In this document: positions 19,698-29,487 of the stretch, one piece after another
Layout: each line of letters opens with the position of its first letter
Position numbering within the stretch: position 1 is the stretch's first letter
Source: Candidatus Iainarchaeum sp.
Lineage (GTDB): Archaea; Iainarchaeota; Iainarchaeia; Iainarchaeales; CSSED10-239
Assembly: GCA_037441475.1 (NCBI GenBank)
Contig: JBBISB010000002.1
Span: 1 to 32,000 of the forward strand
DNA length: 32,000 bases
Reading direction: 5' to 3'
Notes under the pieces: generated by a model
The model's input: the letters and a program-made list of their open reading frames with translations, nothing else
Told to the model about the DNA's origin: nothing
The model's database searches: none
Translations under genes and position numbers: made by a program

Positions 19698-21998
19698 TCA
19701 GTCAAGGTGGAGGTTTATAGGCATTTCAATTCTTACTATTACAACCCAGGTTCCACCGTAAGCAGAACCTGGCATATCAGGAAAACCGTTTGCTCCATTA
19801 CCTATATTTGCAGCAGCATTACCATAAGTACTATTTCCATTACCTCCTTTAGCATAAGCTACAGAAGTCCCTGTAATGCTGTTTGAAATACCAGGAGCAC
19901 CAGCACCACCTGCTGCTGAAGAACTACCAGCAGTACCTATTCCATTTGCACCACCATAACTAAAACCAAAACCTTCTTCATTTGTTGCCCCACCTGTAGA
20001 AGTTGTAGCTCCAAAAGAACTACTTGTTCCAGAAATTCTTTTACGAGGCCAAGAACTATCAGTATATCCACCAGAACCAATAGTTACAGTAGTGTTACCT
20101 AAACTAATAGCTTGACTTGAAAAATATCTATATTGCCCACCATTTCCTCCAGCTCCATTGTAAGGAGCACCACCACCGCCGCCCACAACTAATAATTGTC
20201 CTGTTAAAGCAATATTTGAGTTAAAGGTTCCACCTGAAATGAACCTATGAACTCTCCATACAACTCCACCTGAAACACCCTCAGTAATTAAACCACCTGA
20301 TGAAATAACTTTTCTTACATAAATAGTGTAGGTTTTAGATGGAGCACCAGAAACTGTTGCAACCACAGTAATTGTTTTTTCTAAACCGTCAGAAATATTT
20401 ATTGGACCTGATTCTGAACCAGAAGTTACTGGAGAAACATTAACAGTTATTGTTCCTGATCCAGTTGGAATAACAGTTTTACTATTTATTGTACTTGAAA
20501 GATATCTTACCCCACTATAGGTATATGTACTTGGACTAAAAGTATAGTAACTCGAATAATTCAAAAAAATATCAGTAAGATCTGGAGTTACAGGATCACT
20601 TATAACTACATTATAAGAAGAAACAGAAGTTGCACTTCTTGAAGCACCATCAACAACAGTTACTCTAATATATTTTGTACCAATAGTTGAAAATGAAAAT
20701 GTTTCTGAAGAGTTATTACCTCCAAAAATAATCCATGTGCTTTGATTTGTACTGTATTCCCAAGTATATGTAGATACTCCATTAACAGCATTACTTACTG
20801 AAGATACAAAAGTTATATTTGCATTTGTAAAATGACCTGATCCAGATGTTGGAGAAGTAACACTTGCTGATAATGGATTTGCAACTAAAACACCAGTTAT
20901 TGTGTTTGAATAACCAGTATTAATTGGAAAAGGTCTTCCCGAGTCTGTTAACAAAACTCTAAATTGATAAGTTCCACCAGTTGCAAAAACAGCTGTAATT
21001 GATGCTGAGTTTGTTCCAAAGTTTGTCCACCCAGTATTATCTCTATTATGTTGCCATTGATATGTAATAGTTCCAATATTATTTACAGAACCTACAGTAA
21101 AAGTAATTGATTGACTTAAGTTATATACAGAACTGTTTAAAGGAGAAGATGTAGTTCCTGTCAAAAGAAGAACAACTGTGAAAGAAACACTTGAAGTTGA
21201 AACATCTCCTGTTCCTGTATCTGTAACCTTATAAAAAACAGTATAGCTTCCTGTTGTTTCAAAAGTATGTGTTAAAGAAGAACAGTTAGTTCCTCTTGAG
21301 GTATTAACGTCACTTAATCTTGATATCCATTCACAAGTCACAGCAGAAGTGTTATTATCATAACTTCCATTAAAAGCAATTGCTTCATTGTTGTTCCATG
21401 TACTTCTTGATAAAGCAGTTATGCTTGAAGAAAGATTATCTAAAATATTTACAGAAATTGTGTTTGTTGAAGTAGAAGAGTCTCCAGTATCATTAGTGTC
21501 AAGCTTTATTGAATAACTGTTTACACTTGGAAGGGAGAGAGTAGTGTTACAACTACTACTAAAAGAAGTAAAGGTGCCTAAATCTGCTCTTTTATGACTC
21601 AAGTCACATAAAACAATTGACATATTATTATCAACAGTTGAAGTTAAATTGAAAGTTTTATTAACATTTATATATTTTCCATCAACAGGAGCATTTATGC
21701 TTGATGAAAAAGCATCCCATAAATATAAAAATATTGTTTTACTTGATGTTGTTTCATCATCAGTTGCTACAAGTAAGATTTCATAAGTTCCAGCTGTTGT
21801 AAAAGTATAAGAAATATCACAACTTGTGTTTGAAGGATTCATTCTTACTTGAGAACCGCCATTAATTGTTTGATAAAACTCACAAGCAGCTGTTCCTTTT
21901 GCATTACTTGCAGTTGTATTAAAATCTATTAAAGTATTTGTTCTTTTTTTATCAAAGGTTACAAGATCTGTAAAAAATATTTCAGGCAGGCATTTCAA
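19698..21998 (-). CDS. Large surface adhesin-like protein: five PKD/Ig-like repeats, a cadherin-like beta-sandwich and a C-terminal glycine-rich domain
   Basis: 766 aa. Repeats carry (C/Y)xW...TF...GTY...V.D signatures, e.g. TYQWQHN..GGTYQFRVLLTD and TYTWEYS..GTKYIRVTVVD. Cadherin-like LTDIFLNYSSYYTFSPSTYTYSG...KTYTIYVRK. Gly-rich LLVVGGGGGAPYNGAGGNGGQYRY...VTIGSGGY. Many N-x-S/T sequons. TTG start directly after an in-frame TAG, with no SD and no signal peptide. Confidence 0.7.
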   Translation of the reverse strand: MKCLPEIFFTDLVTFDKKRTNTLIDFNTTASNAKGTAACEFYQTINGGSQVRMNPSNTSCDISYTFTTAGTYEILLVATDDETTSSKTIFLYLWDAFSSSINAPVDGKYINVNKTFNLTSTVDNNMSIVLCDLSHKRADLGTFTSFSSSCNTTLSLPSVNSYSIKLDTNDTGDSSTSTNTISVNILDNLSSSITALSRSTWNNNEAIAFNGSYDNNTSAVTCEWISRLSDVNTSRGTNCSSLTHTFETTGSYTVFYKVTDTGTGDVSTSSVSFTVVLLLTGTTSSPLNSSVYNLSQSITFTVGSVNNIGTITYQWQHNRDNTGWTNFGTNSASITAVFATGGTYQFRVLLTDSGRPFPINTGYSNTITGVLVANPLSASVTSPTSGSGHFTNANITFVSSVSNAVNGVSTYTWEYSTNQSTWIIFGGNNSSETFSFSTIGTKYIRVTVVDGASRSATSVSSYNVVISDPVTPDLTDIFLNYSSYYTFSPSTYTYSGVRYLSSTINSKTVIPTGSGTITVNVSPVTSGSESGPINISDGLEKTITVVATVSGAPSKTYTIYVRKVISSGGLITEGVSGGVVWRVHRFISGGTFNSNIALTGQLLVVGGGGGAPYNGAGGNGGQYRYFSSQAISLGNTTVTIGSGGYTDSSWPRKRISGTSSSFGATTSTGGATNEEGFGFSYGGANGIGTAGSSSAAGGAGAPGISNSITGTSVAYAKGGNGNSTYGNAAANIGNGANGFPDMPGSAYGGTWVVIVRIEMPINLHLD

Positions 21999-22518
21999 CT
22001 AAACATCTTTTAAGATCTATTGTTTTTTTAGGACAAGTTGCTGTTGATAAAGTAAAGGACTTAATATTTCCTCCATCAATAATATCCCCAGAATCAATAT
22101 TAATATCGTTTGTTATAAATGTAAAACCAGAATCTGTACTTAAACTTTTAATTTCTCCTTCTTTTATAGAAGTATCAAACCTACCATGTACTTTTAAAAT
22201 ATCATCAGAAGCTTGAGATTTACCTTGTAAAGTTAAACTTAAGCCTTCAAAATCAATTGGGGTTGGGTTTCTTAAAAGAAGAGTGACTTTACTTGTTTCA
22301 TTATCAACATTACATGAAGTTACAACAAGAGAATATTTCATACATTCCATATTGGATGCAGATTGAAGCTCTCCTTGAGAAACATCTAACTTATCTCTTG
22401 CAGTTGTCTTAGACCATGATAAAAAACCAGCAACCATTACAGAGGTAACTAATATTAATAAAACCACAGAGATTATAGCAGAAATTGATTTTCTTTTAAG
22501 CATTTTTGATTCCTTCAT
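21982..22518 (-). CDS. Archaeal type IV pilin-like protein (class III signal peptide), copy 1
   Basis: 178 aa. MKESKMLKRKS|ISAIISVVLLILVTSVMVAGFLSW. 4 conserved Cys. Its 3' end overlaps the adhesin ORF by 17 nt. TGA stop. Confidence 0.75.
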   Translation of the reverse strand: MKESKMLKRKSISAIISVVLLILVTSVMVAGFLSWSKTTARDKLDVSQGELQSASNMECMKYSLVVTSCNVDNETSKVTLLLRNPTPIDFEGLSLTLQGKSQASDDILKVHGRFDTSIKEGEIKSLSTDSGFTFITNDINIDSGDIIDGGNIKSFTLSTATCPKKTIDLKRCLVEMPA

Positions 22519-22567
22519 AGATATTTATGTTTTATTTAGATATATTTATCTAAATTATATATAATAT

Positions 22568-22607
22568 ACAATTAATAAGTATTAACAAAACTATTATAAA
22601 TATATGT
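22568..22607 (-). promoter_or_regulatory. Conserved 40-nt upstream element of pilin copy 1 containing a TATA-like TTTATAAT
   Basis: ACAATTAATAAGTATTAACAAAACTATTATAAATATATGT matches 23224-23263 at 39/40 positions. It lies 50-90 nt upstream of the start codon. Confidence 0.5.
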
Positions 22608-22656: not shown

Positions 22657-23184
22657 TTATTCAACAAAACATCTTTTTAAATCTATAGTATTTTTAGGAC
22701 AAGTTGCTGTAGAAAGTGTAAAGGATTTAATATTTTCCCCATCAATAATATTTCCAGAATCAAAATTTATGTCATTTGTTATGAATGTAAAACCAGATTC
22801 TGTATTTAAATTTTTAATTTCACCTGATTTTATAGAATTACTAAAACTACCATGCACTTTTAAAATATCATTTGAAACTTGAGACTTACCTTGCAAAGTT
22901 AAACTTAAACCTTCAAAATCAATTGGAGTTGAATTTATTAAAAGAAGATGAATTTTATTTGTATTATTATCAAAAATACAAGATTCCACCATTAAATAAT
23001 ATTTTGAACACTCAACACTAGATGCGGACTTAAATTCTTGTTGAGAAACTTCTAGTTTTTCTTTTGAACTTGTTTTTGACCAAGATAAAAAACCAGCAAC
23101 CATAACAGAAGTTACTAAGATTAATAAAACCACAGAAATTATAGCTGAGATTGATTTTTTATTAATTAATTTTGGCTTCTTCAT
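22657..23184 (-). CDS. Archaeal type IV pilin-like protein (class III signal peptide), copy 2
   Basis: 175 aa. MKKPKLINKKS|ISAIISVVLLILVTSVMVAGFLSW. About 70% identical by eye to copy 1, with identical N-terminal helix and C-terminal FTLSTATCPK.TIDLKRC. TAA stop. Confidence 0.75.
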   Translation of the reverse strand: MKKPKLINKKSISAIISVVLLILVTSVMVAGFLSWSKTSSKEKLEVSQQEFKSASSVECSKYYLMVESCIFDNNTNKIHLLLINSTPIDFEGLSLTLQGKSQVSNDILKVHGSFSNSIKSGEIKNLNTESGFTFITNDINFDSGNIIDGENIKSFTLSTATCPKNTIDLKRCFVE

Positions 23185-23223
23185 AAATATTCAATGGTTA
23201 AAATTTATTTATATTAAAATGAT

Positions 23224-23263
23224 ACAATTAATTAGTATTAACAAAACTATTATAAATATATGT
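23224..23263 (-). promoter_or_regulatory. Conserved 40-nt upstream element of pilin copy 2
   Basis: ACAATTAATTAGTATTAACAAAACTATTATAAATATATGT, 40-80 nt upstream of the start codon, matching 22568-22607 at 39/40 positions. Confidence 0.5.
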
Positions 23264-23297: not shown

Positions 23298-23639
23298 TTA
23301 CCAAGAGACCTTATCATCTAACTTTACAAAAGAAACATCTGTTTCTACAGGTAATTCAATGATATATCTTGCCTTCTTTTTAGGAGCGTAGAAAGTAAAA
23401 GGTTTTAAACTTTTTTTAATATCCACAACCTTTTTTTCAGAATCTAAGAAAATAACATTTATTGGGTAAAAGACAAATAACATATGTATGGATGATCCTA
23501 AAATTGATTCATACTCTCTTTGAAAAATAAGACCAAACTTAAACTTTTTGCGAGGATAAAACATTAAGCCTAAACCTTGCTTTAAAGGAGAAAGTATTTT
23601 TTTTTTATTAATTAAGGTTTTATTATTTACTTTTATCAT
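23298..23639 (-). CDS. DUF192 (COG1430) family protein
   Basis: 113 aa. Pattern GLGLMFYPRKK...IHMLFVFYPINVIFLDSEKKVVDI...ARYIIELP is typical of DUF192. Confidence 0.65.
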   Translation of the reverse strand: MIKVNNKTLINKKKILSPLKQGLGLMFYPRKKFKFGLIFQREYESILGSSIHMLFVFYPINVIFLDSEKKVVDIKKSLKPFTFYAPKKKARYIIELPVETDVSFVKLDDKVSW

Positions 23640-23706: not shown

Positions 23707-24852
23707 TTAATTATACTCATAGAAAATTATAAAATCTATTCCATTCTTTGAAATTTCAAAATCTAAAAAGATTGCATCTGAAACAAAAATGGCATACTCT
23801 GCACAAGAAAAGCCACATTCTTTATTTTCAAAAGATAAAAAATATAAAGTATCACTATATGTTTTATCTAAAATATATCTAGAACTAATGGATTTTAAGG
23901 CAATTATGTTGCTTATTTTAATTGTATTTAAATTGTTTGCATTCATGTAAGTTATTGTGTCAATTAAAACCTTCTCTGCATCTGGCTTTGGAACAGTTAT
24001 TTGAAAAATTAAAACAATTATTACAAAGAAAACTAAAATATATTTTATAAAATTAAAACTACTCTCTTCCTTTATAGAAAACATTATAAAAGAAGTAAAG
24101 ATGGATAACAAAATAGCTGTATACAACAAGAAATTATCAAAGAAGATTCTTGTAATTAACTCTCCATCTCCATACCACAAAAAATTATAACCAAAGATAA
24201 TGTTTACAAAAAGAATAACTATTAAAAATATAAAAAATAAAACTATAGAAAGATAATAAAGGTTTAAAAAATATTTTTTCTTTTGAGACTCTTCTTTAAA
24301 AACAGTTAAGTCTTTTGAAATATTAAAAAGAACTCTGTCAAGAGGAACAGAACTATCTTTAAAAGTTTTTAAAAGTATTAAGGTATGGTTTATAATTGGA
24401 CTTTTAATAGTTTCATTAACATTTAATAAGGCATTTTCAAAATCATCTCCCCATGAGACTCTATTAGCTATCCTCTTTATTTCAGTATCAATTGAACCAT
24501 AGGTGTTTGATTTTGTGATATTTGTAAGAGACAAAGATATATTTTTTGTTATCTTATACTCTCTTGATAAATCTTGAAGAAAATAATTAAAAGAAGTTTC
24601 AATTGCCTTTTTTTTAAAATATTTAATAATAAACTCTAAAAAGAAACCAACAAAACTAACCAAAACACCAAAGAAAAACAAAAAATAATAAAGTTTTGTA
24701 TGTATAATATATTTATTTGCTATATAAACAATTAAAAGACCTGAAAGTATACTTGCAAGTATTAATATCTGATACTCATAATTGTATATAAACATCTTAA
24801 ACTTGATGTTAAACTTTTCAAATAAATTTTTATTATTTAAAACCATATTCAC
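23707..24852 (-). CDS. Type IV pilus platform protein, single T2SS-F-like domain with a C-terminal extra domain, locus B
   Basis: 381 aa. TM pair, cytoplasmic helical domain (FLQDLSREYKITKNISLSLTNI...WGDDFENALLNV), more TMs, then a tail of about 95 aa. Confidence 0.5.
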   Translation of the reverse strand: MNMVLNNKNLFEKFNIKFKMFIYNYEYQILILASILSGLLIVYIANKYIIHTKLYYFLFFFGVLVSFVGFFLEFIIKYFKKKAIETSFNYFLQDLSREYKITKNISLSLTNITKSNTYGSIDTEIKRIANRVSWGDDFENALLNVNETIKSPIINHTLILLKTFKDSSVPLDRVLFNISKDLTVFKEESQKKKYFLNLYYLSIVLFFIFLIVILFVNIIFGYNFLWYGDGELITRIFFDNFLLYTAILLSIFTSFIMFSIKEESSFNFIKYILVFFVIIVLIFQITVPKPDAEKVLIDTITYMNANNLNTIKISNIIALKSISSRYILDKTYSDTLYFLSFENKECGFSCAEYAIFVSDAIFLDFEISKNGIDFIIFYEYN

Positions 24853-24865
24853 ACATTCTTAAACA

Positions 24866-25708
24866 TTATTTATATAAGATAATAACTAATATAAACTCAA
24901 TGATTCCAAAAATTATTGCGAAAACCAATAAAGCATCCTTAAGATAAAGATAATCTGAAAAGGTAAAAAATAATATTACTAAAATTATTATAAATAAGAA
25001 AAATAAAAAAATATACATCAAAAATAAAAGATTGATCCTGCTTTTTTTCTGTTCACTAATCTCCCTTCTTGATTGTTCTAAACTTGAGAGGAAATCAGAA
25101 ACAACTTGATTTAAGTTTTCTTTCTTATCAATAACATCTATAAGCTTTCTAAAGAAATTTTTTTCAATCTCAGAATAAGTTTCAGAGATTATTGATTTAA
25201 AGGTATCTCTTAAATTATGGTTGTAATTTGTTAAAGCCATTATCTTTTTAGCTTCTTTACTTAAAAGATCATTATTTTCTAAATTTTCAAAAACCTTTAA
25301 GACATCTTCAATAGTTAAGTTTTCATCTTTTAAAACAGAAAGGTGTCTTATAGTTCTATTAAACTCATCTCCAATCTCTTTTTTAATTGCATCAAGTAAA
25401 TAGTAAGGATATTTATAAAGTAATAAAAAGATCATGAAAGAAAAGGTAAAAGCAATAAAGACAGTTATAAAGAAACTAAAAATATTAAACAAGATATTTA
25501 ACTTAATCATTAAAAAAATTAAAGCAAATTCAATGACTATTAAAAAGAATAGAGCAATAAATAAAATATTGGAGATATAGCTAACAGAGTCTTCATTAAT
25601 ACCAGTATAGTCAAGTACTTTTTCAAAACTTTTTAAGTTATCTTTAAACATTAAGACCAGGTCTTTGAAAAAGAAACTAGATATTTGTGTTAAAAATTTA
25701 CTGAACAT
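24866..25708 (-). CDS. Type IV pilus platform protein, single T2SS-F-like domain, locus B
   Basis: 280 aa. TMs flank a cytoplasmic helical domain (EIGDEFNRTIRHLSVLKDENLTIEDVLKVFENL...). Confidence 0.5.
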   Translation of the reverse strand: MFSKFLTQISSFFFKDLVLMFKDNLKSFEKVLDYTGINEDSVSYISNILFIALFFLIVIEFALIFLMIKLNILFNIFSFFITVFIAFTFSFMIFLLLYKYPYYLLDAIKKEIGDEFNRTIRHLSVLKDENLTIEDVLKVFENLENNDLLSKEAKKIMALTNYNHNLRDTFKSIISETYSEIEKNFFRKLIDVIDKKENLNQVVSDFLSSLEQSRREISEQKKSRINLLFLMYIFLFFLFIIILVILFFTFSDYLYLKDALLVFAIIFGIIEFILVIILYK

Positions 25709-25715
25709 ACATATA

Positions 25716-28688
25716 TCACTTTATATCAAGCTTTTTAAAAAGATTGTCTTTTTCAAAATAGTATTGAGATACAATACTATTGAAGTCCTTATAACTATAA
25801 ATCTTAGAATCTCTCATCCATCTCATTATTTTTTTTCTCTTTAAAAAATCAACGACATTTATTGACGAGGATAAAAGATTAATTGCATAAACATCCTCTG
25901 AAAGGTCAATATCAACAACCAAACTTTCTTTTTTATTAACAATTTCTCTAATATTCATTATTTGTAAGACTTCTTTTATACCTTGGTTTATTCTTTTAAG
26001 TTCAATAACTATTGACTTTTGATTTACTACTTTTAATTGATCTAAAAATTGATCTGCAACATCAGGGTTTATTGAAAATAAATTTATATTATACCATGAA
26101 ACATCAAAAACATCTTTTGAAAACTCATCAACAACTATGTAGTCTGGTTTTTGAGAGATTGTTTGTTCAATCATTAACTTCTTATTTAAATCTTGGTTAC
26201 TTGTAAAAACTCTATTAACCCATTCTTTCTGTGGAAGTTTAAAACGATCGTAAGCCTGAACTGTAATAATCTTTTTTTCAGGTAAAAATAATAAAATAGA
26301 GTTAAAGATAATAAATGAATCATCAGTATCTATTATCACAACTTTGTAGTTTTCTGCAATTGCAGACCAGATATATGAAAACACATCAACAGACCCAACA
26401 CTGGTGTTGATTAAAGAAACTGGGGTTAATGGTTCTTCTAAATATTTTTTAATTACAAAAGAAGACCCTTTACTACTAGTATCTCCAACAGAATAAAGAC
26501 CTTCCACCTTATAACCGTTAGGAAGATAACCGTCAATAACAGGATGTGCTTGAGTGATGTAAAGACCCATATTTTTTGTAAGTATTAAAACAAATTTATT
26601 GAGTTCATTGATATCTGGAAAACTAATGTTTGTTTTTAAAAGTCCATACTCTACATGCATGATTGAAAGAGTAGATTTTTCTCCTGAACAACTAACTTCT
26701 AGAATCTTTTTATCTTGTAAAAGGTTTGTTAAGATACCAAGACCAAAGAACTCTCTTTGTATAAACTTAAGATAAAGTTTTTGTTGAAGATTACCAAGCC
26801 TGTAAGAAAGTTTATCTAAGGAAATATCATATATCTTTTCTATATATTTATTTAAACTATGCTTATCTCCATTAAAAGAATAATAGTTTTTGTCAATGGT
26901 GTTGAAAAAAATTCTTTTTAACTGTTGATATTCTTTTTCTTGTTCAGCACTTAAATCAGGTTGAACAAGGTTATAAAATAAACCTAACTCTTGATCATAG
27001 TAAATGGTAACATATGTAAAATCATCTATAGAGTATTTATCATAGATTGTTGTAATATCTTTTTTAAAAGTTAAAATAGGGTCATTGTATACTAGTGAGG
27101 AAAATAAACTATTATCACTTGAAAGTTCTTCTTGATATATTTCTTTATTTATTTTAATAGGATTTTTACCTGCATCTTTTGGTAGTATATAATCAATTCC
27201 TTTATCTCTTAGATCTTTAAACTTTTCTGCAATTAAATCCTTTTTAACTCTAGGGTTTTCTTTTATTCTTTTTACAGTCGTTGTTTCAACTATTTGAGGA
27301 GTTTCAATTATTTGTTTTATACCTAACTGTAATTTTTGATCATCCTCTGGAGTAAACTTAATTTCTGAAAAGGTTTTTTGTGTGCTTGCTTGTTCTTCAT
27401 TTATTTTTTGACTAAAAGAATCAATATTAAATTTTTCTTCTTTTTTTAAAGGAACCCTAGTAATATTTTTCTTAATTTCTTCATTTAATTTTACTTGGTT
27501 GTTATCCATTACAAAGTTAGGTATCTTTTCAGAAGCTTCATTTGTTTTAACAATAGATACCATTTTTGAATCATTATTAAGATCAGTTATTTTTTCCTGC
27601 TCAGAGTTTACTTGAGAAATGAAATTTCTATCAATAACATCCTCCATATTTGAAGAATCGTCTTCAATTGCATACATATCAGGAACATCAATTTCTTCTA
27701 AAAGATCATACTTAAGAGATTCTTTTTTAATGTTATAATCTATTTTATCAACAGCAGAAGTTTGTTTTTCTTTAAAAGATGTTTCTTTTACAGAAGTTAC
27801 TGTTTCTTTCTTATGTTCTGTAAGTGCGTCTATTTTTGAATAAAGATTTTTAACATTATATGAGTTAAACTCAACTTTTTTCATCTTTGGCTTATCATCT
27901 AAGAAAGAAAAGACTTCTAAAAAAACATCTTCATTTAATTTATCAGTTTTTTTATTTAATTCTTCTAAAAGAGAATCAACATTTTCACTCTTATTTTTAA
28001 AAGACTCATAAAAATCATCTTTAGAATTATTTTTTAAAGGACTTTCTTTAAAAGGTTGAGAAACTTCTTTTAAAATTTCTTTTAAAATATTCATTGATTT
28101 ATCATTATTAATTGAATAATCTAAGGATAGGTCTTTTTTAATAACCTTGTCAATAACAGAAATGTTTTTTTCAGGAGATACAAAAGAAGAAATATTCTTT
28201 TGAGATTTATTATTTAAGGAAACTTTATTTTGAACAGATGTAGTTGATTTTACTCTTGAGCGCTTATTTAAAGAAATATCTAATAACTCTTTATGTTCAG
28301 GTATCATTAATTGATTATTTGAAAAAAACTTACTATGTTCTTCTATCATTAGGCGTGGTTTTGTTTCTTCTTTAAGAATAAGATCTTCTTTAGGAGTTAG
28401 AGAAGTTGCTTCCTTTACAATAATTTTTTCTTTAACCTTTTCTTTTTCAAAAGGATTAAATGGTTTTTTATGTTCAGAAATGTCAGAAACGTCTATTTTC
28501 AAGTCTACTTTTTTTACACCTTGATATTCCAAAGGAACTGTTTTAGTTTCTTTTTTATAAGGTAAAGAAACATCCATTTTTTCTAATCTATTTACTTTAG
28601 ATTCGGTTTGATATTTTTGAGTGATACTTTTAGATAGAGGAATTCTTTTAATTACCTTAAAATCTAAAGATCCATCTATTTCTGACAT
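25716..28688 (-). CDS. FlaI/TadA-like protein with a degenerate Walker A (probable pseudo-ATPase) and an N-terminal low-complexity extension of about 540 aa
   Basis: 990 aa. The C-terminal half is collinear with FlaI: FYNLVQPDLSAEQEKEY, REFFGLGILTNLLQDKKILEVSC, GSSFVIKKYLEEPLTPVSLI. The Walker A position reads IIDTDDSFII (DTDDSFII at 26307-26330) instead of GxxGSGKT, and the His box reads FSINP. Walker B-like KPDYIVVDEF is retained. AGGTAG upstream of the ATG. Confidence 0.65.
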   Translation of the reverse strand: MSEIDGSLDFKVIKRIPLSKSITQKYQTESKVNRLEKMDVSLPYKKETKTVPLEYQGVKKVDLKIDVSDISEHKKPFNPFEKEKVKEKIIVKEATSLTPKEDLILKEETKPRLMIEEHSKFFSNNQLMIPEHKELLDISLNKRSRVKSTTSVQNKVSLNNKSQKNISSFVSPEKNISVIDKVIKKDLSLDYSINNDKSMNILKEILKEVSQPFKESPLKNNSKDDFYESFKNKSENVDSLLEELNKKTDKLNEDVFLEVFSFLDDKPKMKKVEFNSYNVKNLYSKIDALTEHKKETVTSVKETSFKEKQTSAVDKIDYNIKKESLKYDLLEEIDVPDMYAIEDDSSNMEDVIDRNFISQVNSEQEKITDLNNDSKMVSIVKTNEASEKIPNFVMDNNQVKLNEEIKKNITRVPLKKEEKFNIDSFSQKINEEQASTQKTFSEIKFTPEDDQKLQLGIKQIIETPQIVETTTVKRIKENPRVKKDLIAEKFKDLRDKGIDYILPKDAGKNPIKINKEIYQEELSSDNSLFSSLVYNDPILTFKKDITTIYDKYSIDDFTYVTIYYDQELGLFYNLVQPDLSAEQEKEYQQLKRIFFNTIDKNYYSFNGDKHSLNKYIEKIYDISLDKLSYRLGNLQQKLYLKFIQREFFGLGILTNLLQDKKILEVSCSGEKSTLSIMHVEYGLLKTNISFPDINELNKFVLILTKNMGLYITQAHPVIDGYLPNGYKVEGLYSVGDTSSKGSSFVIKKYLEEPLTPVSLINTSVGSVDVFSYIWSAIAENYKVVIIDTDDSFIIFNSILLFLPEKKIITVQAYDRFKLPQKEWVNRVFTSNQDLNKKLMIEQTISQKPDYIVVDEFSKDVFDVSWYNINLFSINPDVADQFLDQLKVVNQKSIVIELKRINQGIKEVLQIMNIREIVNKKESLVVDIDLSEDVYAINLLSSSINVVDFLKRKKIMRWMRDSKIYSYKDFNSIVSQYYFEKDNLFKKLDIK

Positions 28689-28755: not shown

Positions 28756-29487
28756 TTATATAAACTGATTTAAGATAACTGACATTAAATCAAAAATATA
28801 TAAGAAGATTACAAGGATGTAACTAATAAAAATAAGGATAACAAAGGGAACTAAAGGAGAAACCCATACCTTTGAAACATTATTCTTTTTTGCAAAGTTC
28901 TTTAATAAAAGTATCTCTTTTTCAGGCTCTATGTTTGGAGCATAAATGATATTTGAAACTACCTTGTTGTTTTCTAAAGTTAATTTTTCTAAAGGAGTAT
29001 AGAATTTAGTAATTTTATTTAAAGATAAAGGGTATCCTAAAAACATTAGATAAAGGGATTTAAAAAAAGAAAATTTAGGATAATTTCTTTTAAAAACATT
29101 AAATAAGAATATAGATGTTGGAACCAATAAAGTTAAAAGTAAAGCAAAAAAGAAAACAAACATTGGAAAATAAATATTAAAGATATTAGTAAAAGACAAT
29201 GCCATTATTGTATATAAATCTCCCTCTCCGATATAAGTAAAATAACTTAATTTTCCAAGACCATAAAAGATTAATAAGAAAACAAAAGTAACAAATATTT
29301 GTAAAAAGTAAGCCCACCATAGAGAGGTGTTACTTTTAAAAATAAAAAAACCTAAATAAATTAGACTAACAATTGCAAGAACAAGTAAAGACATGATATT
29401 TATTTCACGATATTTAATGTCTTGATACGTAATATAAAGTAGAATAACTAAAGTAAATATAACTAATGGTAAATATAAAACATTCAT
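28756..29487 (-). CDS. A24-family prepilin/preflagellin peptidase (PibD/EppA/FlaK-like)
   Basis: 243 aa, polytopic. Two catalytic Asp contexts: YQDIKYREI and YIGEGDLYT. The start ATG overlaps the upstream gene's TGA as ATGA. Confidence 0.75.
   Translation of the reverse strand: MNVLYLPLVIFTLVILLYITYQDIKYREINIMSLLVLAIVSLIYLGFFIFKSNTSLWWAYFLQIFVTFVFLLIFYGLGKLSYFTYIGEGDLYTIMALSFTNIFNIYFPMFVFFFALLLTLLVPTSIFLFNVFKRNYPKFSFFKSLYLMFLGYPLSLNKITKFYTPLEKLTLENNKVVSNIIYAPNIEPEKEILLLKNFAKKNNVSKVWVSPLVPFVILIFISYILVIFLYIFDLMSVILNQFI

What the first reader, a model, noticed from the sequence alone, without database searches (positions are those of the whole stretch)
21961..22030. Signal-less 766-aa adhesin ORF overlaps the 3' end of pilin copy 1: possible modular pilin made by recoding or lost to an indel
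The adhesin consists of extracellular-type domains with many N-x-S/T sequons, yet it has no signal peptide or TM. Its only start is a TTG (21996-21998) directly preceded by an in-frame TAG, with no SD, and it overlaps pilin copy 1 by 17 nt. Pilin copy 2 ends ...KRCFVE-TAA, whereas copy 1 reads on as ...KRCLVEMPA-TGA. A +1 shift at GCC-U-GAA at that TGA continues as EIFFTDLVTFDKK..., the adhesin frame. That would yield a class III signal peptide, a pilin domain and a ~760-aa adhesin in one chain. Modular type IV pilins with C-terminal adhesive modules are known in bacteria (for example Streptococcus sanguinis PilB/PilC). I do not know of an archaeal example of this size.
Basis: inference. Interest (0 to 1): 0.6.

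Follow-up and report, generated by a model that had tools for sequence, protein, structure and literature searches.

The report
Split archaeal pilin-adhesin gene
The small pilin gene and the signal-less 766-codon "adhesin" ORF are the two halves of one pilus-subunit-plus-adhesin gene that relatives carry as a single ORF; here a net 2-base loss in the hinge splits it, most likely a young loss-of-adhesin allele and not a decoding trick.

Summary
Pilin copy 1 (22518-21982) ends ...KRCLVEMPA-TGA. The 766-aa ORF (21998-19698) starts at TTG after an in-frame TAG, overlaps the pilin by 17 nt, has no hydrophobic segment, and lies in the +1 frame.

Six relatives encode pilin and adhesin as one ORF of 765-934 aa. 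The +1 read-through of the window aligns end to end with one of them at 70% identity. The hinge from the last pilin Cys to a conserved Arg is 63 nt in nine other sequences and 61 nt here, a net loss of 2 nt.

A Logan contig is 100% identical over 5 kb, so this is not an assembler artefact. Reads could not be checked.

Two other lineages (Ca. Forterrea and an uncultured MAG) carry an in-frame TAA within three codons of the window's TGA. Two more have frameshifts inside the adhesin. All are young: downstream frames remain open and dN/dS is not raised.

There is no stimulatory RNA structure, conserved shift site or suppressor tRNA. The same genome also has a fragmented pilus ATPase and a second fragmented adhesin gene.

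Best reading: a recent, real disruption that leaves a bare pilin. Leaky recoding is not excluded. The scan found the Forterrea TAA case earlier on other DNA.

The parts
21982..22518 (-). Pilin copy 1 (178 aa): class III signal peptide (MKESKMLKRKS|ISAIISVVLLILV...), N-terminal helix and beta-sandwich head. It ends VEMPA-TGA. This is the pilin module of the split modular pilin.
   Evidence: ORF list. Hydrophobic peak 2.8 at residue 15. AF2 model with pLDDT 77.8, helix 10-50 plus beta-sandwich. The top PDB fold hits are archaeal type IV pilins 6w8x and 8fk7, prob 1.0 but E about 2e-3.
21942..22005 (-). Hinge between the modules, from the last pilin Cys codon (22005-22003) to the conserved Arg codon (21944-21942). 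The Cys-to-Arg offset is 61 nt here and 63 nt in nine other sequences.
   Evidence: offset count; alignment. The full-length AF2 model has pLDDT below 50 over residues 170-189, but that model is poor overall.
21981..21987 (-). Frame break: GCC (Ala178) then TGA in the pilin frame. Skipping the T (21984) gives GAA ATA TTT TTT, i.e. EIFF, the homologous continuation.
19698..21998 (-). Adhesin module ORF (766 codons as listed; homologous coding starts at GAA 21983): about five PKD-like repeats, a cadherin-like sandwich and a glycine-rich C-terminal domain. It has no signal peptide of its own.
   Evidence: It is 65-68% identical over 99% of its length to residues about 170-934 of the fused proteins P0001 and P0002. 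Gly_rich_2 and Cadherin-like are called in P0002.
22657..23184 (-). Pilin copy 2 (175 aa), a stand-alone pilin. Its homology with copy 1 stops exactly at GTT GAA (VE) and is followed at once by TAA.
22566..22607 (-). Near-identical upstream element (contains TTTATAAT) in front of copy 1. Its twin lies in front of copy 2 at about 23222-23263. These are likely promoters of the duplicated unit.
   Evidence: DNA alignment A3. Noted earlier as e1-2518684.
23298..23639 (-). DUF192 gene, found directly upstream of the pilin in every orthologous locus.
23707..25708 (-). Two T2SSF (TadB/C, ArlJ-type) platform genes: 23707-24852 and 24866-25708.
25716..28688 (-). 990-aa FlaI-like protein in the motor-ATPase position. 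It gives no Pfam T2SSE hit and only a sub-threshold partial FlaI match.
Evidence: I did not re-test that.
28756..29487 (-). Archaeal class III signal (prepilin) peptidase, A24 plus Arc_PepC_II.

Best explanation
The locus is an archaeal (DPANN, Forterrea-like Iainarchaeota) type IV pilus operon. It encodes an A24 prepilin peptidase, a FlaI-like protein, two platform proteins, DUF192 and the pilins. Ancestrally, the last gene encodes a modular pilin: a class III signal peptide and pilin module, joined by a hinge of about 21 residues to an adhesin of about 760 residues. The adhesin consists of PKD-like repeats, a cadherin-like sandwich and a glycine-rich tip. It has no signal peptide because it is exported and displayed as the C-terminal extension of the pilin. 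In this genome a real mutation removed a net 2 nt from the hinge. The simplest event is GCC TCT GAA becoming GCC T GAA. The pilin frame therefore ends at once at TGA and the adhesin lies in the +1 frame. The cell now makes a bare 178-aa pilin, alongside the stand-alone copy 2. The adhesin module is no longer translated, or only at the background error rate. It is a young remnant that has not yet decayed. Shown here: the fused state in relatives, the frame break, the hinge length deficit, and the recurrence and youth of such breaks. Inferred: that the adhesin is not expressed, and that losing it is tolerated or favoured.
For: Fused orthologues. P0001, P0002, P0003, P0005, P0006 and P0008 (765-934 aa) run from the pilin signal peptide straight into the adhesin, at loci with the same synteny of DUF192, pilin-adhesin, rpL10e. 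The +1 read of the window (P0014, 939 aa) is 70% identical to P0001 over 935 residues, with the junction aligned.

Hinge length. The Cys-to-Arg offset is 63 nt in nine other sequences and 61 nt in the window.

Not an assembler artefact. Logan contig L043 is 100% identical over 5040 nt, including the junction. ORFs of at least 100 aa cover 83-84% of the genome, so there is no genome-wide indel noise.

Recurrence in relatives by different mutations:
- Ca. Forterrea has CAA changed to TAA at hinge codon 8, identical in eight loci from several samples.
- MAG CAZQEL01 has TTA changed to TAA at hinge codon 10.
- L042 is fused at the hinge but has a 7-nt deletion about 145 codons further on.
- L040 has an A6-to-A4 frameshift near the C-terminus.

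Youth. L042 is identical to Forterrea around the hinge except for the C/T change. dN/dS of the adhesin is not raised in broken lineages: 0.26-0.38 against 0.44-0.54 for fused pairs. Polarised N/S on the window branch is 0.92, against 1.67 on its intact sister. A neutral 2.3-kb ORF of this composition would have a 50% chance of a stop by 0.7% divergence and 95% by 2.9%.

No recoding signals. RNA folding downstream of the TGA gives z = +1.2. No suppressor or expanded-anticodon tRNA was found.

Other broken genes in the same genome. A Fer4-T2SSE pilus ATPase gene is in at least three pieces. The orthologue of Forterrea's 1737-aa class-III-signal adhesin is spread over five frame segments.

A bare pilin is viable. 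Copy 2, L044 and many family members are stand-alone pilins ending 3-7 residues after the same Cys.
Against: Three of five independent breaks fall within hinge codons 7-10, out of about 650-760 adhesin codons. That is far from uniform, roughly 3e-4 by my rough estimate. It needs either selection for a clean cut or a function for the stop. In every broken lineage the downstream frame is fully open and shows no relaxation of constraint, which is also what continued translation would give. No old, decayed remnants were seen at this locus. Reads could not be examined, so the allele frequency in the population is unknown. L043 may come from the same reads as the genome. GCC-UGA-A formally resembles stop-dependent +1 sites. 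Only tRNA-Ala(UGC) was detected, which would read GCC by weak wobble, a condition known from my own knowledge of yeast to favour +1 shifts.
Confidence: 0.68

Rival explanations
1. Two products from one gene by leaky decoding. Most ribosomes stop at the hinge and make the bare major pilin. A small fraction shift +1 at GCC-U-GAA (or read through TAA in Forterrea and the CAZQEL MAG) and make the pilin-adhesin. This would set a low adhesin-to-pilin ratio in the filament.
For: Three independent interruptions fall within hinge codons 7-10. All downstream ORFs are intact and dN/dS is not raised. The break places a stop codon in the A site right after GCC, and only tRNA-Ala(UGC) was found. In most relatives the fused gene is the only close pilin gene at the locus.
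Against: The three lineages would need two different mechanisms, +1 shifting and TAA read-through. The Forterrea TAA is a very recent single C-to-T change on an otherwise identical background, which leaves no time for a signal to evolve. TAA-A and TGA-A are, from general knowledge, efficient terminators. There is no RNA structure, no conserved shift site and no suppressor tRNA. Peptidyl-tRNA-Ala cannot re-pair on CCU. Other breaks lie inside the adhesin, where recoding makes no sense. Other pilus and adhesin genes of this genome are plainly decaying.
Confidence: 0.12
2. The break is not the organism's main allele. It is a sequencing or consensus error, or a minority variant, and the real gene is fused and intact.
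For: Reads were not available. The genome comes from a metagenome. L043 may derive from the same run. The adhesin ORF is perfectly intact and looks constrained.
Against: Two assemblers give the identical sequence over 5 kb. The site is not a homopolymer, and a 2-nt loss is not a typical short-read error. No near-identical intact allele is on record among 5.8 billion proteins; the best hit is 68% identical. Genome-wide ORF coverage is normal. Analogous breaks in Forterrea were reproduced in many independent samples.
Confidence: 0.1
3. Reversible on/off switching (phase variation) of the adhesin. Slippage at short repeats in the hinge and elsewhere ((CT)2 or GCCT-GCCT here, A6 in L040) toggles between sticky and bare pili in the population.
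For: The window junction reads A-TGCC-TGCC-TGA. Either adding CT or removing one 4-nt unit restores the frame. L040 is broken in an A-run. Breaks recur and are young.
Against: Two-unit repeats slip rarely. The two TAA cases are point mutations, which are not slippage-prone. No mixed alleles could be demonstrated. All copies within each population are identical.
Confidence: 0.07
4. The adhesin is translated on its own from the TTG at 21998 by coupling or re-initiation, and acts as a separate protein.
For: The 17-nt overlap with the pilin stop is compatible with coupling.
Against: The product would have no signal peptide or anchor, yet it consists of extracellular-type domains. In all relatives these residues are internal to one polypeptide. 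The TAA lineages have no start codon until a Met about 46 residues into the first domain.
Confidence: 0.03

Closest known systems
Bacterial modular type IV pilins (Streptococcus sanguinis PilB with a vWA module and PilC with a lectin module; ETEC CofB; V. cholerae TcpB), as defined by Raynaud et al. 2021 (PMC8179133)
   Same: An N-terminal pilin module with a class III signal peptide is joined by a short linker to modules not specific to pilus biology. The adhesive part is exported and displayed because it is part of the pilin.
   Different: This case is archaeal, whereas the 2021 survey used the bacterial IPR012902 motif and does not mention archaea. The appended part is much larger, about 760 aa with some seven domains. 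In most relatives it is the only close pilin at the locus, so it may not be a minor tip pilin. In the window the fusion is broken.
Archaeal type IV pilins with solved filaments (Saccharolobus solfataricus pilus 6W8X; Pyrobaculum calidifontis pilus 8FK7)
   Same: A class III signal peptide, a long N-terminal helix and a beta-sandwich head. These are the top fold matches of the AF2 model. An A24/Arc_PepC_II peptidase and platform genes lie alongside.
   Different: The fold matches are weak (E about 2e-3, TM 0.3-0.46). No Pfam or NCBIfam pilin model reaches threshold. The solved pilins carry no C-terminal adhesin.
Phase-variable or frameshift-inactivated pilus adhesin genes, e.g. Neisseria pilC poly-G frameshifts (own knowledge)
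   Same: A pilus-associated adhesin is switched off by small frame-changing mutations while the pilus genes stay intact. Independent off-alleles recur.
   Different: There is no long homopolymer here. Two relatives use point nonsense mutations. Reversibility is not shown. The adhesin is part of the pilin gene itself.
Stop-dependent programmed +1 frameshifting (bacterial prfB CUU-UGA-C; antizyme UCC-UGA-U) (own knowledge)
   Same: An in-frame UGA immediately follows the last zero-frame codon, and the product continues in the +1 frame.
   Different: There is no conserved site in relatives, no re-pairing-competent P-site codon, and no upstream or downstream stimulator.
Geobacter split pilin PilA-N / PilA-C (mentioned in PMC10191384)
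   Same: A pilin whose parts are encoded as two adjacent genes after fission.
   Different: In Geobacter both parts are made and assemble together. Here the downstream part lacks any export signal, and the split is very young.

Membership tests
Archaeal type IV pilin (class III signal peptide protein) | N-terminal class III signal peptide: a short basic leader, a [KR]-[GAS] cleavage site, then about 20 hydrophobic residues | tested here: met
   MKESKMLKRKS|ISAIISVVLLILVTSVMVAGF. The Kyte-Doolittle 19-residue mean is 2.8 at residue 15. The motif is conserved across 18 family members.
Archaeal type IV pilin (class III signal peptide protein) | Pilin fold: a long N-terminal alpha-helix packed on a beta-sandwich head | tested here: met
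   AF2 model with pLDDT 77.8, helix 10-50 and a beta-sandwich. The best PDB matches are 6w8x and 8fk7, both archaeal pili, with prob 1.0 but weak E (1.6e-3) and TM 0.31-0.46.
Archaeal type IV pilin (class III signal peptide protein) | Cognate machinery in the locus: prepilin peptidase, platform protein, assembly ATPase | tested here: inconclusive
   The A24 plus Arc_PepC_II peptidase and two T2SSF genes are present. The 990-aa protein in the ATPase position gives no Pfam T2SSE hit and only a sub-threshold partial FlaI match. A second T2SSE gene in the window is fragmented.
Archaeal type IV pilin (class III signal peptide protein) | Match to a curated pilin family model | tested here: not met
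   No Pfam hit. The NCBIfam UpsA match has E 0.083 and 13 bits against a cutoff of 130.
Modular type IV pilin (Raynaud et al. 2021) | The pilin module and the extra module lie in one polypeptide, joined by a short linker | tested here: not met
   This is met in six relatives. In the window as encoded, the two modules are in different frames, separated by TGA. The window carries a broken member of the family.
Modular type IV pilin (Raynaud et al. 2021) | The extra module consists of domains not specific to pilus biology | tested here: met
   PKD_4 and PKD, with a sub-threshold Cadherin-like match, in the window ORF. Cadherin-like and Gly_rich_2 above cutoff in P0002.
Modular type IV pilin (Raynaud et al. 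2021) | The module has a direct role in a pilus-mediated function such as adhesion | not testable with these tools
   This is an inference from domain types only.
Programmed +1 ribosomal frameshift | The shift site and two-frame arrangement are conserved among relatives | tested here: not met
   Six of the ten other lineages have uninterrupted fused ORFs, two more are in frame at the hinge, and two have an in-frame TAA. None shares the GCC-TGA-A site.
Programmed +1 ribosomal frameshift | A stimulatory element, such as an RNA structure, near the site | tested here: not met
   131 nt around the site fold at -14.2 kcal/mol against a shuffle mean of -17.9, z = +1.23.
Programmed +1 ribosomal frameshift | The trans-frame product is detected | not testable with these tools
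   This needs proteomics or a reporter assay.

The most novel reading that the evidence does not exclude
The hinge stops are not losses. They are a recurrent way of making two products from one gene: bulk bare pilin by termination, plus rare pilin-adhesin by spontaneous +1 shifting (window) or TAA read-through (Forterrea, CAZQEL MAG). Selection would keep the downstream 640-760 codons open. This would be a stoichiometry-setting recoding device in archaeal pili, analogous in logic to the phage tail G/GT proteins.
Probability: 0.12. Interest if true: 0.8.

Novelty: new member of a known kind. Interest (0 to 1): 0.4.

Why it matters
DPANN archaea are thought to live attached to other cells, and their pili and adhesins are the prime candidates for host recognition. 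This locus shows that Forterrea-like archaea graft a multi-domain adhesin of about 760 residues, with exchangeable tips, directly onto a pilin. That is an archaeal counterpart of bacterial modular pilins. It also shows that natural populations repeatedly carry young alleles that cut the adhesin off, preferentially at the hinge. This gives a concrete, testable handle on selection acting on attachment, for example virus or host pressure, or sticky versus bare pili. For annotation, the 766-aa ORF should not be called a separate cytoplasmic protein, nor should a recoding event be annotated without evidence.

Tried and rejected
Allele frequency remains untested.

2. Looking for diverged sequences that share the same break, which would test selection after the break. 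All eight Forterrea loci are identical to each other, and so are all six CAZQEL-type loci. No second record of the window species carries a different sequence.

3. dN/dS (NG86 pairwise; polarised counts). These show no relaxation in broken lineages. That fits both a young loss and continued function, so it does not discriminate.

4. My first idea was that a 13-nt or 4-nt tandem duplication (TGAAAT...TGAAAT, or GCCT-GCCT) created the shift. I demoted it because the hinge is 63 nt in nine other sequences and 61 nt here, so one 2-nt loss is more parsimonious. The 4-nt duplication cannot be excluded.

5. I also considered that copy 2's TAA shares ancestry with copy 1's TGA, which would make the stop old. 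I rejected this because homology between the copies ends exactly at GTT GAA.

6. Full-length AF2 model of the +1 read. Mean pLDDT was 50 and the C-terminal 300 residues were not modelled. I used it only as weak support for a disordered hinge and did not search with it.

7. An alternative genetic code does not help, because the two halves are in different frames and the pilin frame meets TGA and TAA again within 13 codons.

8. The Forterrea genome paper has no mention of pili or stop codons.
Full report
**What is at the coordinates**

The finding lies on the minus strand. Pilin copy 1 (22518..21982, 178 aa) ends ...AAA AGA TGT TTA GTT GAA ATG CCT GCC TGA. The 766-codon ORF (21998..19698) begins at a TTG that follows an in-frame TAG. 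It overlaps the pilin by 17 nt and lies in the +1 frame relative to the pilin.

Its next possible start is an ATG at codon 53. It has no hydrophobic segment: the Kyte-Doolittle 19-residue maximum is 1.2, against 2.8 for the pilin N-terminus. It carries 24 N-x-S/T sequons, where 18 are expected from composition. Pfam calls PKD/PKD_4 domains above cutoff and gives a sub-threshold cadherin-like match. Pilin copy 2 (23184..22657) is 76% identical to copy 1 and ends ...KRCFVE-TAA.

**Context**

The window has about 27% GC. Upstream of the pilins, on the same strand, lie:
- a DUF192 gene;
- two T2SSF platform genes;
- a 990-aa FlaI-like protein;
- an A24/Arc_PepC_II class III signal peptidase.

Downstream lies rpL10e. 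This is an archaeal type IV pilus operon.

The pilin has the class III signal pattern (KRKS|ISAIISVVLLILV...). An AF2 model (pLDDT 77.8) shows a helix over residues 10-50 followed by a beta-sandwich. Its best PDB matches are the S. solfataricus (6w8x) and P. calidifontis (8fk7) pilins, though weakly. The closest named genome is Candidatus Forterrea multitransposorum, a DPANN archaeon described as a Diapherotrite. A second hit is titled Ca. Iainarchaeum sp.

**The two ORFs are one gene in relatives**

A search with the 766-aa ORF returned proteins of 765-934 aa that cover 99% of the query and extend about 170 residues further at the N-terminus. Their sequences begin with the same pilin and run straight into the adhesin. 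An example is ...CPKKTIDLKKCAVELPSSQIFFSNITNFD... in P0002.

Six distinct fused proteins exist: P0001, P0002, P0003, P0005, P0006 and P0008. Their loci have the same synteny of DUF192, pilin-adhesin, rpL10e. Reading the window with one +1 step at GCC-T gives a 939-aa product, P0014. It is 70% identical to P0001 over 935 residues, with the junction aligned. The adhesin lacks a signal peptide because it is normally the C-terminal extension of a pilin.

**Nature of the break**

The offset from the last pilin Cys codon to a conserved Arg codon (R-V/I/T-N-T/S) is 63 nt in nine other sequences and 61 nt in the window. The simplest event is a 2-nt loss. For example, GCC TCT GAA becoming GCC T GAA fits the Ser found at that position in the Forterrea clade. 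A 4-nt tandem duplication (the junction reads A-TGCC-TGCC-TGA) or a 1-nt gain would each need an additional in-frame deletion.

**Is it real?**

A Logan contig from SRR11582163 is 100% identical to the window over 5040 nt, including the junction. So the break is not specific to one assembler, although the reads may be the same.

ORFs of at least 100 aa cover 83-84% of the genome, so there is no general indel noise. No intact near-identical allele is on record; the best hit is 68% identical.

**Relatives are broken too, independently**

- In Ca. Forterrea the same gene has a single in-frame TAA where close relatives have CAA (...VELPSS*IFFSN...). The sequence is identical in eight loci from the complete genome, another NCBI assembly, and JGI and ENA metagenomes.
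- In MAG CAZQEL01, and in matching JGI and Logan contigs, a TAA replaces the TTA of its fused relative P0003 (...NLPDFET*ILSPS...).
- Within the 21-codon hinge, the three stops sit at codon 7 (window), codon 8 (Forterrea) and codon 10 (CAZQEL). The nearest relative of each broken lineage is fused and the mutations differ in kind, so the events are independent.
- L042, a strain identical to Forterrea around the hinge except for C instead of T, is fused at the hinge. It has a 7-nt deletion about 145 codons into the adhesin.
- L040 (P0003) has an A6-to-A4 frameshift that cuts off the last 50 or so residues. L042 and L040 are single contigs, so these two breaks could not be verified independently.
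- L044, a more distant lineage, has only the pilin, ending RCSVN*, directly before rpL10e.

Of about eleven lineages, five carry a disruptive change in the adhesin part. Three of those five are in the hinge.

**Age and selection**

L042 shows that the Forterrea TAA is very recent.

Pairwise dN/dS of the shared adhesin region is 0.26-0.65 for all pairs. It is not higher for broken lineages:

| Pair | dN/dS |
|---|---|
| window vs L009 | 0.26 |
| Forterrea vs L014 | 0.38 |
| L006 vs L040 | 0.36 |
| fused vs fused pairs | 0.44-0.54 |

Polarised counts give N/S = 0.92 on the window branch and 1.67 on its intact sister. By my calculation, a neutral ORF of this sequence would have a 50% chance of a stop by 0.7% divergence and 95% by 2.9%, ignoring indels. 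So either every break is young or the downstream part is still under selection. No diverged pair sharing a break was available to separate these two possibilities.

**Tests of recoding**

- No structure follows the site: z = +1.23 against shuffles.
- The site is not conserved.
- ARAGORN finds no suppressor or expanded-anticodon tRNA in the genome. Only tRNA-Ala(UGC) is detected for Ala.
- Two different mechanisms, +1 shifting and TAA read-through, would be needed across lineages.
- The breaks inside the adhesin in L042 and L040 cannot be explained by recoding at the hinge.

**Genome context favours decay**

On contig C1, the orthologue of Forterrea's 1737-aa class-III-signal adhesin is spread over five frame segments.

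**Why the hinge?**

Stand-alone pilins of this family end 3-7 residues after the same Cys. In the window, the homology between copy 1 and copy 2 stops exactly at VE. A cut in the hinge therefore leaves a complete, normal pilin. A cut inside the adhesin leaves a pilin dragging a partial domain. Selection among loss-of-adhesin mutants for a clean cut explains the clustering without recoding. This step is inference.

**Conclusion**

The best explanation (about 0.68) is a real, young frameshift allele that turns a modular pilin into a bare pilin plus an untranslated adhesin remnant. It is one case in a recurrent pattern of adhesin knock-outs in this clade.

The rivals are:
- leaky two-product decoding (0.12);
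- artefact or minority allele (0.10);
- reversible switching (0.07);
- separate translation from the TTG (0.03).

**Comparison with the literature and earlier scan notes**

Modular pilins are defined and surveyed for bacteria only (PMC8179133; PMC10191384). A 2026 survey of archaeal type 4 filament systems mentions adhesin-like and class-III-signal proteins, and says these systems are poorly represented in DPANN (PMC13705601).

The scan had already reported the Forterrea TAA case on other DNA (e1-548943 and e1-1898486). My results agree with both. For the window lineage they add the frameshift, the 61-nt against 63-nt hinge, and the L040 break.

Noticed in passing
window 10833-12589 (-): A pilus-type secretion ATPase gene with an N-terminal 4Fe-4S domain is in at least three ORF pieces: a Fer4 ORF at 12092-12589, a T2SSE fragment at 11187-11657 matching profile positions 100-244 of 370, and a 112-aa remainder.
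   Followed up: partly
G000 contig C1 about 501900-505800 (L046:1434-5323): The orthologue of Forterrea's 1737-aa adhesin with a class III signal peptide (L047) is spread over frames 3, 2, 1, 3, 2, so it has at least four frame changes. This is a second, more heavily broken pilin-anchored adhesin in the same genome.
   Followed up: partly
L042:780-790 (JGI 3300042281): A Forterrea-like strain has CAA (fused) at the hinge but a 7-nt deletion (TTATTCT) about 145 codons into the adhesin. It is a single contig and was not independently verified.
   Followed up: partly
L040:3955-3975 (ENA ERZ27315937): The 'fused' P0003 gene has an A6-to-A4 change relative to L006. This shifts the frame and removes the last 50 or so residues. 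The shifted frame still encodes the homologous KCKYW...VTDYT end.
   Followed up: yes
P0002 vs P0005 (L005/L013 vs L014): These proteins are 89-99% identical over the first 636 or so residues but carry unrelated C-terminal tips. One tip is a cadherin-like sandwich plus Gly_rich_2 (also in the window and P0001). The other is a module of about 180 aa ending KCKYW...Y[GTE]. The tip module appears to be exchanged between close relatives.
   Followed up: partly
L044:861-1391 (Logan SRR32456898): A more distant relative (52% identical pilin) has a stand-alone pilin ending RCSVN*. About 320 nt of non-coding DNA and then rpL10e follow, so the adhesin-less state exists at the same position.
   Followed up: yes
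window 25716-28688 (-): The 990-aa protein in the motor-ATPase position gives no Pfam T2SSE hit and only a partial, sub-threshold FlaI match (123 bits against a cutoff of 550).
   Followed up: no
G000 whole genome: ARAGORN finds 36 tRNA genes and only one tRNA-Ala (anticodon UGC). GCC, the last zero-frame codon before the break, would then be read by wobble, unless a tRNA-Ala(GGC) is unassembled or intron-containing.
   Followed up: no
L025-L036 (family relatives): Other genera of the family carry pilin modules of the same type fused to other extensions (ORFs of 304, 411 and 538 aa, and open frames up to 1444 aa), next to stand-alone pilins of 165-179 aa. Modular pilins look common in this DPANN family.
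   Followed up: partly
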